Shown in pieces: positions 49,638 through 50,021 of a DNA stretch of 64,000 nt. This DNA is from Candidatus Poriferihabitaceae bacterium (GTDB lineage: Bacteria; Pseudomonadota; Gammaproteobacteria; Arenicellales; Poriferihabitantaceae). The notes under the pieces were generated by a model, which was not told the origin of the DNA, did not search any database, and saw only the letters and a list, made by a program, of their open reading frames with translations. The stretch lies in assembly GCA_965203265.1 (NCBI GenBank), contig CBDBBV010000002.1, forward strand, positions 49,299 to 113,298. Direction: 5' to 3'. A program made the position numbers and the translations under genes. Position 1 is the stretch's first letter. Every line of letters begins with the position of its first letter.

Positions 49638-50021
49638 GCCCGCATAGCTCAGTTGGCTAGAGCAGCTGATTTGTAGATGATTGCACCTTCACGGGGAAAC
49701 TCGTGAAGTGGAGGTGGCTAAAACGGGGAAACCTTCCTCGAAACCGATTCGGGCTTTGCGGCGTGCCGCATCTGGATGTTCGCGTTTTCGAGATGGCAAT
49801 CCCGTGCTACGCCCGAAAGTGGTAGGCGATCGGTAGTTTGTCTCGCTGTTCGGGGGAAGTGTAGAGACTTTACACCACCCACCTGAGTCGGCCGATCGGG
49901 CGATTGGCCGATATGGTGAAGAGAAAGTCCGGACTCCAAACTCCGGTTGAATCGGAGGCCGTGAAAACGGTAGCGGGTGTGAATCAGCAGGTCGTGGGTT
50001 CGAGTCCCTCTGCGGGCTCCA
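49638..50021 (+). tRNA. tRNA-Thr(UGU) interrupted in the anticodon loop by a 307-nt intron (exons 49638-49674 and 49982-50021)
   Basis: Exon 1 is GCCCGCA TA GCTC AGTTGGCTA GAGC A GCTGA TT TGT. Exon 2 is AA TCAGC AGGTC GTGGG TTCGAGT CCCTC TGCGGGC T CCA. Joined, they give a 77-nt cloverleaf with 7/7 acceptor and 5/5 anticodon stem pairing and one U-U mismatch in the T stem. Confidence 0.85.
49675..49981 (+). ncRNA. Group I self-splicing intron (IC3/Azoarcus-like core), no ORF
   Basis: The 5' exon ends in U and the intron ends in G. The guide sequence GAUU-GCA (49679-49685) pairs with the 3' exon AAUC (P10) and with the 5' exon UGU (P1, G-U at the splice site). A P2-like hairpin is CUUCACG/CGUGAAG. 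The core string GUGUAGAGACUUUACACCACCCACCUGAG (49859-49887) closely matches the remembered Azoarcus intron core GGUGUAGAGACUAGACGGCACCCACCUAAGG. Confidence 0.8.

What the first reader, a model, noticed from the sequence alone, without database searches (positions are those of the whole stretch)
49638..50021. Group I self-splicing intron inside the anticodon loop of tRNA-Thr(UGU), first gene of the tRNA-tuf operon
A 37-nt 5' half (49638-49674) and a 40-nt 3' half (49982-50021) join into a clean 77-nt tRNA-Thr(UGU) cloverleaf, but 307 nt separate them. The insert obeys group I rules. The upstream exon ends in U (49674) and the insert ends in G (49981). A guide sequence GAUU-GCA (49679-49685) can pair its GCA with the exon-terminal UGU (3-bp P1 with G-U at the splice site). 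Its GAUU can pair with the first 3'-exon bases AAUC (P10), in the 5'-P10/P1-3' order expected. A hairpin CUUCACG-GGGAAACU-CGUGAAG follows, like P2 of the Azoarcus intron. The string GUGUAGAGACUUUACACCACCCACCUGAG (49859-49887) is nearly the P7/P3/P8 core of the Azoarcus tRNA-Ile intron as I remember it (GGUGUAGAGACUAGACGGCACCCACCUAAGG). Other islands also line up (CUAAAACGGGGAAACCU vs CAAAUUCGGCGAAACCU; GAUGGCAA in both). The insertion point, directly after anticodon base 36, is the same as in Azoarcus. There is no credible ORF in the intron, so no homing endonuclease. The bacterial tRNA group I introns I know of sit in tRNA-Leu(UAA), tRNA-fMet/Ile(CAU) and tRNA-Arg(CCU). I do not know of a described tRNA-Thr(UGU) host. 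Here the intron sits in the conserved thrU-tyrU-glyT-thrT-tuf transcription unit, so ribozyme folding and splicing would occur on the EF-Tu precursor transcript. Relative to Azoarcus it carries an extra ~60-nt 3' extension after AUAUGG (49914-49981).
Basis: partly seen in the sequence, partly recalled or inferred. Interest (0 to 1): 0.88.

Follow-up and report, generated by a model that had tools for sequence, protein, structure and literature searches.

The report
Group I intron splitting tRNA-Thr(UGU)
The threonine tRNA gene that opens the tRNA–EF-Tu operon is interrupted in its anticodon loop by a well-preserved 307-nt self-splicing (group I) ribozyme; it is real, but it belongs to a catalogued family found in many public genomes.

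Summary
Window 49638-49674 and 49982-50021 join into a clean 77-nt tRNA-Thr(UGU), and intron-aware ARAGORN calls it with a 307-nt intron (49675-49981).

- **Identity.** The insert is a bacterial tRNA-type (IC3, Azoarcus-like) group I intron. It has U·G at the 5' splice site, a GCA guide, a terminal G, and P2-P9 with the P3/P7 pseudoknot. The Rfam Intron_gpI match is local only (30.2 bits, E=7e-6, below the gathering score of 50). A profile of 13 published bacterial tRNA introns hits only this site (E=2.6e-15).
- **Relatives.** Fifteen are gammaproteobacterial and sit in the same Thr-Tyr-Gly-Thr-tuf operon. Their cores are invariant and their peripheral helices covary.
- **Function.** Splicing is inferred, not shown.
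- **Novelty.** It is not new in kind. Williams (bioRxiv 2020) already lists tRNA-Thr hosts, including the class 'Thr.5Ug' at this loop position.
The 'extra 3' extension' came from a truncated memory of the Azoarcus sequence. Only 2-3 bp of the proposed P10 are conserved.

Verdict: a new member of a known kind, of modest interest. Standard annotation misses both the intron and the tRNA.

The parts
49503..49532 (+). Sigma-70-like promoter candidate (TTGCAA-18-TAAAAT), about 100 nt upstream of the split tRNA
   Evidence: Consensus scan. This is a pattern match only.
49638..49674 (+). tRNA-Thr(UGU) 5' exon (tRNA positions 1-37, ending in anticodon UGU). U at 49674 is the -1 U of the 5' splice site.
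   Evidence: ARAGORN with introns allowed. Exon stems are 97% paired across 16 homologues, with a compensatory change in acceptor pair 6.
49672..49685 (+). P1 hairpin. Exon UGU (49672-49674) pairs with guide GCA (49683-49685), with U·G at the splice site. The P1 extension is A49675-U49682 and G49676·U49681. UU (49681-49682), plus A49680, can re-pair with 3' exon AA(U) at 49982-49984 as P10.
   Evidence: Pairs checked. P1 is invariant in 16/16 gamma-type and 6/6 Rhodobacteraceae-type homologues, and it covaries with the host anticodon across other intron classes.
49675..49981 (+). Group I (IC3, bacterial tRNA type) intron, 307 nt, with no endonuclease ORF
   Evidence: RF00028 at 30.2 bits, E=7.3e-6, local scan. 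nhmmer with 13 published seeds gives E=2.6e-15. ORFs lying inside the intron are at most 51 aa. MFE z-score is -3.5.
49687..49708 (+). P2: 9 bp closed by an invariant GAAA tetraloop (49696-49699)
   Evidence: Seven of 9 pairs show changes on both sides; 95.8% of cells are paired.
49713..49717 (+). P3 5' strand GGUGG, pairing with CCACC at 49875-49879. The sixth position is a C·A mismatch (49718/49874) in all gamma-type copies.
   Evidence: P3 covaries across the published seeds.
49723..49805 (+). P4 (49723-49728 / 49800-49805) enclosing J4/5 AAA and the P5 domain (49732-49796). P5 is CC/GG with a 7-bp P5a and a variable two-hairpin extension.
   Evidence: P4 is 6/6 paired. Its first pair is A-U here and U-A in all 19 other-class sequences, a compensatory change. 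The P5 extension varies in length among homologues.
49806..49860 (+). P6 (GCU/AGU) and the variable P6a extension
   Evidence: P6 is 3/3 paired. Its third pair is U-A here, against C-G or G-C elsewhere. All 6 P6a pairs show double changes.
49864..49870 (+). P7 5' strand G-(A bulge)-GACUU, pairing with AAGUCC at 49925-49930. This is the presumed guanosine-binding helix.
   Evidence: P7 is 6/6 paired. The sixth pair is U-A here, against A-U or G-C in the seeds. The guanosine-binding role is inferred from group I intron biology.
49880..49918 (+). P8 (CACC/GGUG) with an internal loop CCUGAG...UAUGG that resembles the 11-nt GAAA receptor, plus a 10-bp P8a
   Evidence: P8 is 4/4 paired and invariant. 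Four homologues have CCUAAG on the 5' side: L081 and L105 have the full CCUAAG...UAUGG, while L100 and L029 have UAAGG on the 3' side. Docking of the L2 tetraloop is inferred by analogy with Azoarcus.
49919..49930 (+). J8/7 (AAGAGA) and the P7 3' strand (AAGUCC); together the conserved 'S' element
   Evidence: Invariant in 16/16 homologues. It aligns to the AAGGGAUAGUCC consensus of the published seeds.
49933..49978 (+). P9 three-way region. P9 is ACUC/GGGU (49933-49936 / 49975-49978). P9a is a hairpin at 49942-49956. P9b is CCGU-GAAA-ACGG at 49959-49970.
   Evidence: P9 is 4/4 paired against the published consensus. P9a has 4/4 pairs and P9b 2/4 pairs with double changes. The P9b loop is GAAA, or GCAA in L081/L105.
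49981..49981 (+). Terminal (omega) G at the 3' splice site
   Evidence: All 21 homologous Thr(UGU) introns have U at -1 and G at the 3' end.
49982..50021 (+). tRNA-Thr(UGU) 3' exon (A37 to the encoded CCA)
50117..51876 (+). Rest of the transcription unit: tRNA-Tyr (50117-50201), tRNA-Gly (50239-50313), tRNA-Thr(GGU) (50400-50475), tuf (50568-51758), tRNA-Trp (51801-51876)
   Evidence: ARAGORN, sequence, translation. The same gene order occurs in the 15 gammaproteobacterial loci that carry the intron.

Best explanation
**What it is.** This is a splicing-competent group I intron of the bacterial tRNA (IC3, Azoarcus/Anabaena) family. It sits between anticodon base U36 and A37 of a functional tRNA-Thr(UGU) gene, the first gene of the Thr-Tyr-Gly-Thr-tuf operon.

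**Proposed mechanism.** The steps below are inferred from the anatomy and from established group I chemistry; none was observed here.
1. The anticodon UGU pairs with the guide GCA to form a 3-bp P1 with U·G at the cleavage site. P1 is extended by two intron pairs.
2. Free guanosine or GTP, bound in P7, attacks after U49674.
3. The UU(A) of the guide then pairs with the first AA(U) of the 3' exon (a short P10), helped by the tRNA anticodon stem.
4. The terminal G49981 enters the guanosine site. The exons are ligated to give mature tRNA-Thr(UGU), and the intron is released.
5. The fold is probably braced by two GAAA tetraloops, L2 docking on a P8 receptor and L9b on P5, as in Azoarcus.

**Mobility.** There is no endonuclease gene. 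The intron is either inherited vertically or spreads by reverse splicing or recombination.
For: **Shown here.**
- Exact tRNA halves and a 307-nt intron.
- All core helices (P1-P9) are formable in the sequence.
- RF00028 gives an end-to-end local match, E=7.3e-6.
- A profile of 13 published bacterial tRNA introns gives a unique hit, E=2.6e-15.
- The sequence fits the published consensus structure: P1, P2, P4, P6, P7, P8 and P9 are all paired, and P3 is 5/6. There are compensatory differences from other classes in P3, P4, P6 and P7.
- 21 homologous introns lie at the identical site of tRNA-Thr(UGU), all with U at -1 and G at the 3' end.
- In the 16-sequence gamma-type alignment the core blocks are 100% invariant while the tuf genes are only 73-84% identical.
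- In that alignment 89.5% of cells are paired, against 38-45% when partners are slid. None of 500 shuffles reaches the observed covariation, which is concentrated in P2, P6a, P9a and P9b.
- The exons stay a perfect tRNA, with one compensatory acceptor-stem change.
- The split gene occupies the usual thrU slot of the operon in all 15 related loci.
- No intact Thr(UGU) gene occurs in the window or in those loci.
- ACA codons are used in the window.

**From the literature.** Azoarcus pre-tRNA-Ile, with its intron at the same loop position, self-splices in vitro (PMC13168695).
Against: - No splicing data exist for this or any tRNA-Thr intron in the literature I could search.
- The Rfam score (30.2) is below the gathering score (50). 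The hit disappears in whole-window scans.
- P3 has a C·A mismatch at its sixth pair, and P1 is only 3 bp of exon pairing.
- The rest of the genome is not available, so a second, uninterrupted tRNA-Thr(UGU) cannot be excluded.
- The tRNA T-stem has a U·U mismatch (49995/50009), though it is shared by 10 of 16 homologues.
Confidence: 0.88

Rival explanations
1. The intron is a decayed or inactive group I relic. On this view the interrupted gene is a tRNA pseudogene, and a second, intact tRNA-Thr(UGU) elsewhere in the genome does the decoding.
For: - The Rfam score is below threshold.
- P3 has a C·A mismatch and the T-stem has a U·U mismatch.
- The rest of the genome is unseen.
Against: - The catalytic core and both exons are invariant across 16 genomes whose tuf genes differ by 16-27%.
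- Peripheral helices change by compensatory substitutions.
- The C·A and U·U features are shared by most or all homologues rather than being private lesions.
- The gene keeps its operon position in every relative.
Confidence: 0.06
2. The ribozyme is functional, but its splicing is rate-limiting and serves as a control point. For example, it could sense GTP or Mg2+, or need a protein chaperone, and so set tRNA-Thr(UGU) supply or processing of the tuf operon transcript. On this view it is not a neutral passenger.
For: - The intron is retained at the head of the EF-Tu operon in several gammaproteobacterial lineages.
- Group I introns need a guanosine cofactor (established biochemistry).
- The rare ACA codon is absent from tuf and rpoB but present elsewhere in the window.
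Against: - Nothing in the sequence, such as a sensor domain or riboswitch, points to regulation.
- Peripheral insertions are variable, not conserved.
- Related introns sit in many unrelated tRNAs, which fits selfish or neutral persistence.
Confidence: 0.05
3. The resemblance to a group I intron is due to chance, or the insert is another kind of element (IS, MITE or group II fragment) that landed in the tRNA gene.
For: None beyond the sub-threshold Rfam score.
Against: - Searches give E-values from 7e-6 to 3e-15, and 0 matches are expected by chance.
- The full set of group I helices is present and covaries.
Confidence: 0.01

Closest known systems
[quoted passage not shown]
   Same: - Same insertion point, after anticodon base 36.
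- A 3-bp exon/guide P1 with U·G, extended by two intron pairs.
- The guide is followed directly by CC and a P2 capped by GAAA.
- Near-identical strings: GUGUAGAGACU..AC..CACCCACCU and AAA.CGG.GAAACCU.
- A CCU.AG...UAUGG receptor-type loop in P8.
- No ORF.
   Different: - The guide is GCA (reads UGU) rather than GUG (reads CAU).
- Length is 307 nt against 205 nt.
- The extra length lies in P5, P6 and P8 extensions and in a three-part P9 (P9/P9a/P9b), which Azoarcus lacks but most other bacterial tRNA introns have.
- P4 pair 1, P6 pair 3 and P7 pair 6 are flipped, and P3 pair 6 is C·A.
- Identity is about 55% over aligned columns.
- Self-splicing is shown for Azoarcus, not here.
tRNA-Thr group I introns catalogued by K.P. 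Williams, bioRxiv 2020 (10.1101/2020.01.27.920355): classes Thr.5Ug, Thr.3Ug, Thr.2Ug
   Same: - Thr.5Ug is defined as tRNA-Thr interrupted after the fifth anticodon-loop nucleotide, with U at -1 and G at the intron's 3' end. That is exactly this arrangement.
- Same intron family and same consensus structure.
   Different: - The Thr.5Ug seed (Rba53) has P1 ggU/..UGcc, so it sits in tRNA-Thr(GGU), not UGU. It is only about 51% identical to the window intron.
- The Thr.3Ug seed is in Thr(UGU) but splits bases 34/35.
- The paper's Table 1 is an image, so I could not see whether UGU-type copies were counted.
- The preprint is bioinformatic only.
Unannotated homologues in public genomes. Gamma-type: Ca. 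Poriferihabitaceae, Arenicellales, Acidiferrobacterales and other Gammaproteobacteria MAGs (L020-L120). Rhodobacteraceae-type: Ruegeria, Roseovarius, Salipiger, Paracoccus rhizosphaerae CCM 7904.
   Same: - Identical insertion site and the same UUGCA guide.
- For the gamma-type, the same operon and 64-79% identity over aligned columns, with invariant cores.
   Different: - The window's own genome was not among the 120 returned loci. The nearest are L120 and L035 (Ca. Poriferihabitaceae), with about 72-79% nucleotide identity over the flanking genes.
- Rhodobacteraceae copies are 252-256 nt and carry an extra hairpin inside the P1 loop.
- No tRNA-Tyr gene was found within the roughly 450 nt inspected downstream of them.
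Cyanobacterial/plastid tRNA-Leu(UAA) intron (Anabaena type, 'Leu.3Ug')
   Same: - Same IC3 family.
- P9/P9a/P9b organisation with a GAAA loop, and AAGRGAnAGUCC as J8/7-P7.
- About 59% identity to the Ncf2.Leu.3Ug seed.
   Different: - Inserted between anticodon bases 34 and 35 of a different tRNA.
- Longer P1.
- Scores above Rfam's threshold (63 bits for a gammaproteobacterial Leu(UAA) copy).

Membership tests
Group I introns (general definition; Rfam RF00028) | 5' splice site follows a U that forms a U·G wobble in P1 with an internal guide sequence | tested here: met
   The pairs are U49674·G49683, G49673-C49684 and U49672-A49685. They are invariant in 22 Thr(UGU) copies. The guide covaries with the anticodon in other classes.
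Group I introns (general definition; Rfam RF00028) | Intron ends in G (omega G) | tested here: met
   G49981. All 21 homologues have U at -1 and G at the 3' end.
Group I introns (general definition; Rfam RF00028) | Conserved core: P4-P6 stack and P3-P7-P8-P9 stack joined by the P3/P7 pseudoknot | tested here: met
   All helices form. The sequence fits the published consensus structure. Covariation is seen within the clade for peripheral helices and between clades for P3, P4, P6 and P7.
Group I introns (general definition; Rfam RF00028) | P7 guanosine-binding helix with a bulged nucleotide, and conserved J8/7 | tested here: met
   The sequence reads G-A(bulge)-GACUU / AAGUCC, preceded by AAGAGA. 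This matches the family consensus and is invariant in 16/16 copies. Binding itself was not tested.
Group I introns (general definition; Rfam RF00028) | Score at or above Rfam's gathering threshold (50 bits) | tested here: not met
   The score is 30.2 bits, found only in a 551-nt local scan. The hit is absent from whole-window scans. Other Thr introns also fall short at 29.5-33.6 bits, whereas Leu(UAA) scores 63.2 and Ile(CAU) 53.0. Williams 2020 notes that the Rfam seed then held no bacterial introns and used an 18-20 bit cut-off.
Group I introns (general definition; Rfam RF00028) | Guanosine-dependent self-splicing | not testable with these tools
   Needs in vitro transcription and splicing, or RNA data.
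Bacterial tRNA introns, subgroup IC3 (Azoarcus / Anabaena type) | Located in the anticodon loop of a tRNA gene whose exons form a normal tRNA | tested here: met
   G1-C72, C2-G71 and U73 are shared with the neighbouring tRNA-Thr(GGU).
Bacterial tRNA introns, subgroup IC3 (Azoarcus / Anabaena type) | Sequence-profile similarity to accepted members | tested here: met
   nhmmer with 13 seeds from Williams 2020, none of them Thr(UGU) at position 5, gives E=2.6e-15 covering model positions 10-222 of 227.
Bacterial tRNA introns, subgroup IC3 (Azoarcus / Anabaena type) | GAAA tetraloops on P2 and P9 that dock on receptors in P8 and P5 | tested here: inconclusive
   The L2 GAAA loop is invariant. The L9b loop is GAAA, or GCAA in two copies. 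P8 carries CCUGAG...UAUGG; L081 and L105 have the full CCUAAG...UAUGG. P5 (CCUUCC...GAUGG) is not a canonical receptor. Docking itself is a 3-D property that was not tested.
'Thr.5Ug' class of Williams 2020 | tRNA-Thr; intron after the fifth anticodon-loop nucleotide; U at -1; G at the intron's 3' end | tested here: met
   The loop is UUUGU|AA with the intron after U36.
'Thr.5Ug' class of Williams 2020 | Same lineage as the class's seed sequence (Rba53.Thr.5Ug) | tested here: inconclusive
   The seed is in the GGU isoacceptor and is about 51% identical, no closer than introns of other tRNAs. The counts table is an image and could not be read.

The most novel reading that the evidence does not exclude
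In a clade of Gammaproteobacteria (Ca. Poriferihabitaceae, Arenicellales, Acidiferrobacterales and relatives), the only gene for tRNA-Thr(UGU) is ribozyme-interrupted. Decoding of ACA would then depend on self-splicing of the first RNA of the EF-Tu operon. Because the reaction needs guanosine/GTP and Mg2+, the cell could use it as a physiological gauge on tRNA supply or on processing of the tuf operon transcript.
Probability: 0.05. Interest if true: 0.6.

Novelty: new member of a known kind. Interest (0 to 1): 0.3.

Why it matters
**For annotation.** Default tRNA finders and Rfam at its gathering score both miss this gene. Genomes of this clade would therefore look as if they lack tRNA-Thr(UGU).

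**For ribozyme biology.**
- This is a natural retargeted relative of the Azoarcus ribozyme: same insertion point and same compact P1, with the guide changed from GUG to GCA.
- It comes with a ready-made comparative set of 22 sequences.
- Two cultured carriers of the Rhodobacteraceae form (Paracoccus rhizosphaerae CCM 7904 and Ruegeria sp. 2304DJ69-11) could be used to test splicing of a tRNA-Thr intron. I found no report that this has been done.

**What it does not change.** It does not alter what is known about how group I introns work or where they live.

Tried and rejected
1. **Source lookup by EF-Tu.** An exact-sequence lookup of the window's EF-Tu, meant to find its source and near relatives, found nothing on record.
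2. **Intronless alleles in relatives.** A metagenome scan for the intronless exon junction (AGAGCAGCTGATTTGTAATCAGCAGGTCG) was meant to find intron-free alleles in close relatives. It returned 120 or more hits, all from unrelated organisms: at least 5 mismatches elsewhere in the tRNA and tuf at most 72% identical. It is uninformative on recent gain or loss.
3. **Co-divergence of intron and tuf.** Eight taxa and 28 pairs gave Spearman 0.12, p=0.55. This is inconclusive, because tuf third positions are saturated and the peripheral intron alignment is noisy.
4. **Threading onto the published alignment.** MAFFT first showed P3 and P4 mismatched. This traced to a 1-nt gap placed in J4/5 instead of J2/3. 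After moving it, P3 is 5/6 and P4 is 6/6.
5. **My first P9 pairing** (297-300 with 318-321) was wrong. It was replaced by the P9/P9a/P9b arrangement of the published consensus.
6. **L030.** ARAGORN called it Thr(tgt) with an intron ending in U. The exons are those of tRNA-Lys(UUU), so it was excluded.
7. **Own covariance model.** I did not build one for the whole intron. At about 300 positions it would probably exceed the calibration time limit.
8. **Viral contigs.** No Thr(UGU) host was found among them.
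Full report
**1. The observation**

The sequence is as described. Default ARAGORN finds tRNA-Tyr, tRNA-Gly, tRNA-Thr(GGU) and tRNA-Trp around tuf, but nothing at 49638-50021. Rfam at gathering thresholds finds no tRNA and no intron there either.

With introns allowed, ARAGORN calls tRNA-Thr(tgt) at 49638-50021 with a 307-nt intron after tRNA position 37. Joining 49638-49674 to 49982-50021 gives a 77-nt cloverleaf with an encoded CCA. 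G1-C72, C2-G71 and the discriminator U73 are the same as in the uninterrupted tRNA-Thr(GGU) 380 nt downstream.

Three tests show this is more than chance:
- A local Rfam scan aligns RF00028 (Intron_gpI) end to end over 49663-49951, at 30.2 bits and E=7.3e-6. This is below the gathering score of 50.
- The 24-nt core motif occurs once in the window, with none expected in shuffles.
- A profile HMM built from 13 published bacterial tRNA group I introns hits the 128 kb of both strands exactly once, at 49680-49976, with E=2.6e-15.

ORFs lying inside the intron are at most 51 aa.

**2. Anatomy**

Positions are in pre-tRNA numbering, where 1 = window 49638. All pairs were checked, except P9, whose first register failed there and was revised, and the P5, P6a and P8a pairs, which were counted.

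| Element | Pairs or sequence | Notes |
|---|---|---|
| P1 | U35-A48, G36-C47, U37·G46 | Extendable by A38-U45 and G39·U44 |
| P2 | 50-58 / 63-71 | Closed by GAAA |
| P3 | 76-80 / 238-242 | Sixth position is C81·A237 |
| J3/4 | UAAA | |
| P4 | 86-91 / 163-168 | |
| P5 | 95-96 / 158-159 | 7-bp P5a and a two-hairpin extension |
| P6 | 169-171 / 221-223 | With P6a |
| P7 | G227, G229-U233 / A288-C293 | A228 bulged |
| P8 | 243-246 / 278-281 | Loop CCUGAG...UAUGG and a 10-bp P8a |
| J8/7 | AAGAGA | |
| P9 | 296-299 / 338-341 | Encloses hairpin P9a (305-319) and the GAAA-capped P9b (322-333) |
| Omega G | G344 (window 49981) | |

Thermodynamic folding alone recovers P2, P4, P5, P6a, P8 and P9b, with a z-score of -3.5.

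**3. Relatives**

*Genome scan.* One scan of the species-representative genome collection used the core motif GTAGAGACTNNACNNCACCCACCT, chosen to fit both this intron and the remembered Azoarcus core.

Intron-aware ARAGORN found a split tRNA in 105 of them:

| Host call | Loci |
|---|---|
| CAU anticodon (Azoarcus type) | 64 |
| Thr(UGU) | 22 |
| Leu(UAA) | 5 |
| Leu(CAA) | 4 |
| Ser(CGA) | 3 |
| Lys(UUU) | 2 |
| Asn(GUU) | 2 |
| Glu(CUC) | 2 |
| Val(AAC) | 1 |

One of the 22 Thr calls (L030) is really tRNA-Lys(UUU). The remaining 21 Thr(UGU) introns are 252-343 nt long. All sit between ...GAUUUGU and AAUCAG..., and all have U at -1 and G at the 3' end.

*Two forms.*
- Fifteen 'gamma-type' copies come from Ca. 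Poriferihabitaceae, Arenicellales, Acidiferrobacterales and unclassified Gammaproteobacteria MAGs. They share the window's start, A..AUUGCACCUU plus P2.
- Six Rhodobacteraceae copies come from Ruegeria, Roseovarius, Salipiger and the isolate Paracoccus rhizosphaerae CCM 7904. They have the same UUGCA guide, placed after an extra hairpin in the P1 loop.

*Operon context.* All 15 gamma-type loci have the same operon: split Thr(UGU), then Tyr, Gly, Thr(GGU), (tuf) and Trp, as far as each locus extends. None has an intact Thr(UGU) nearby.

*Source organism.* The window is collinear with Ca. Poriferihabitaceae loci at about 72-79% nucleotide identity. It therefore comes from a related but different gammaproteobacterium.

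**4. Evidence of constraint**

*Within the gamma-type clade.* In the 16-sequence alignment A1 the core is invariant in long blocks: 72-96, 158-172, 221-247 and 278-293. Meanwhile P5, P6, P8 and P9a vary in length and sequence, and the hosts' tuf genes are only 73-84% identical.

On my structure, 89.5% of cells pair, against 38-45% when partners are slid by 1-3 columns. None of 500 shuffles reaches the observed covariation. Changes on both sides occur in 7 of 9 P2 pairs, 6 of 6 P6a pairs, 4 of 4 P9a pairs and 2 of 4 P9b pairs. P1, P3, P4, P5, P6, P7 and P8 do not vary within this clade, so they say nothing there.

*Against the published family.* For the invariant helices I threaded the sequences onto the seed alignment and consensus structure published by Williams. 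MAFFT had misplaced a 1-nt gap, which I corrected. After that:
- The window satisfies P1, P2, P4 (6/6), P6 (3/3), P7 (6/6), P8 (4/4) and P9 (4/4), and P3 at 5/6.
- It differs from other classes by compensatory changes: P4 pair 1 is A-U (others U-A); P6 pair 3 is U-A (others C-G or G-C); P7 pair 6 is U-A (seeds mostly A-U or G-C); P3 pair 5 is G-C (others U·G).
- Across classes the P1 guide tracks the host anticodon.

*Exons.* The exons remain a 97%-paired tRNA. Acceptor pair 6 changes C-G to A-U or U·G in single sequences.

**5. How it most likely works**

The steps below are inferred, not observed.
1. The anticodon UGU pairs with GCA, giving U·G at the cleavage site.
2. Exogenous guanosine bound in P7 attacks after U49674.
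3. The guide's UU(A) exchanges its P1-extension partners for the first AA(U) of the 3' exon (P10), with the anticodon stem holding the exons together.
4. G49981 replaces the cofactor, and the exons are ligated.

Only two P10 pairs are invariant and a third holds in 14 of 16 copies.

The invariant L2 GAAA loop faces the receptor-like P8 loop, which is the full CCUAAG...UAUGG in L081 and L105. The GNRA loop of P9b suggests the same two tetraloop clamps known from Azoarcus. This is an analogy, not a test.

The Azoarcus pre-tRNA, with its intron at the same loop position, self-splices in vitro (PMC13168695).

On the need for this tRNA: ACA codons, which only a UGU anticodon reads, make up about 55 of 765 Thr codons in a rough ORF set. 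They are absent from tuf and rpoB.

On transcription: a promoter-like site lies about 100 nt upstream, and no terminator-like site separates the tRNAs from tuf. Co-transcription is therefore plausible, as in the E. coli thrU-tufB operon (textbook knowledge).

**6. Comparison with what is known**

The classical bacterial hosts are Leu(UAA), fMet, Ile(CAU) and Arg(CCU). K.P. Williams (bioRxiv 2020, 10.1101/2020.01.27.920355) extended these to 21 settings. His seed alignment contains Thr.5Ug, Thr.3Ug and Thr.2Ug.

By his definition the window's intron is a Thr.5Ug. However, his seed for that class sits in tRNA-Thr(GGU) and is only about 51% identical to the window intron. His counts table is an image, so I could not see whether UGU copies were included. 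I found no paper reporting splicing of any tRNA-Thr intron.

The same file gives the true Azoarcus sequence. Azoarcus continues for 42 nt after UAUGG, against 68 nt here. The difference is the P9a hairpin and a longer P9, features shared with most other bacterial tRNA introns.

The Rfam model under-scores this lineage in general: Thr introns score 29.5-33.6 bits, against 53-63 for Ile(CAU) and Leu(UAA) copies. The window's hit vanishes in whole-window scans.

**7. Verdict**

The feature is real and correctly interpreted. It is very probably functional, but it is a new member of a known and catalogued kind, and it recurs in public genomes. Its value is practical:
- a tRNA gene that standard pipelines miss;
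- a natural GUG-to-GCA retargeted cousin of the Azoarcus ribozyme;
- a comparative set, and cultured carriers, for a first splicing test of a tRNA-Thr intron.

Noticed in passing
window 10000-22000: Low-GC island: 42-48% GC against 60-66% in the flanks. It encodes a ResIII/DEAD helicase (9952-12483, -), two TPR proteins, an N6/N4 DNA methylase (16059-17789, -), an AAA_15/AAA_21+DUF3696 ATPase (19627-20769, -) and a GmrSD_N/DUF262 protein (20753-21874, -). It looks like a horizontally acquired defence island. tRNA-Leu(GAG) lies at 7607-7691, near its edge.
   Followed up: partly
window 2379-2614 (+): Strong cobalamin riboswitch (105.8 bits, E=1.9e-25) at the start of a long + strand ORF ending at 4588.
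   Followed up: no
window 26320-26423 (+): Sub-threshold match to t44 RNA (40.2 bits against a gathering score of 44), just upstream of an ORF at 26442-27515. From memory, t44 is the rpsB leader; I did not identify the ORF.
   Followed up: no
L244 (about 5700-6300) and L252 (about 12000-12600); also L241-L255: IMG/VR viral contigs carry the same intron core inside tRNA genes (CAU and Leu(UAA) hosts). In L244 and L252 the split tRNA-Leu(UAA) lies in a tRNA array (Ala-[Val]-Leu-Lys-Ile(UAU)-[Gly]) next to endolysin, nuclease and Ig-domain tail or structural genes. A 2014 review states that all phage group I introns then known were in protein-coding genes. These may be phage-encoded tRNAs with group I introns.
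   Followed up: partly
L009, L014, L016, L118 (Leu CAA); L074, L086, L093 (Ser CGA); L038, L085 (Asn GUU); L053, L113 (Glu CUC); L036, L088, L030 (Lys UUU); L067 (Val AAC call): The same Azoarcus-like core interrupts many other tRNAs in Pseudomonadota and in one Anaerolineales MAG. Several of these isoacceptor settings (Glu, Val) are not among the seed names of the Williams alignment. ARAGORN's splice placement is unreliable for some: L030, called Thr, is really Lys(UUU).
   Followed up: partly
L018, L066, L091, L096, L097, L114: The Rhodobacteraceae form of the Thr(UGU) intron (252-256 nt) carries an extra hairpin inside the P1 loop, ahead of the UUGCA guide. It occurs in cultured strains (Paracoccus rhizosphaerae CCM 7904, Ruegeria sp. 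2304DJ69-11). These could be used for experiments.
   Followed up: partly
window 49931 and 49979: The base after P7 (pre-tRNA position 294) and the base two before the terminal G (position 342) change together: G/G in the window, L120 and L035, and A/A in the other 13. These three are each other's closest relatives, so this may be shared ancestry rather than a contact near P9.0.
   Followed up: no
window 49995 and 50009: The second T-stem pair of the spliced tRNA is a U·U mismatch. It is shared by 10 of 16 homologues; the other 6 have G·U.
   Followed up: no
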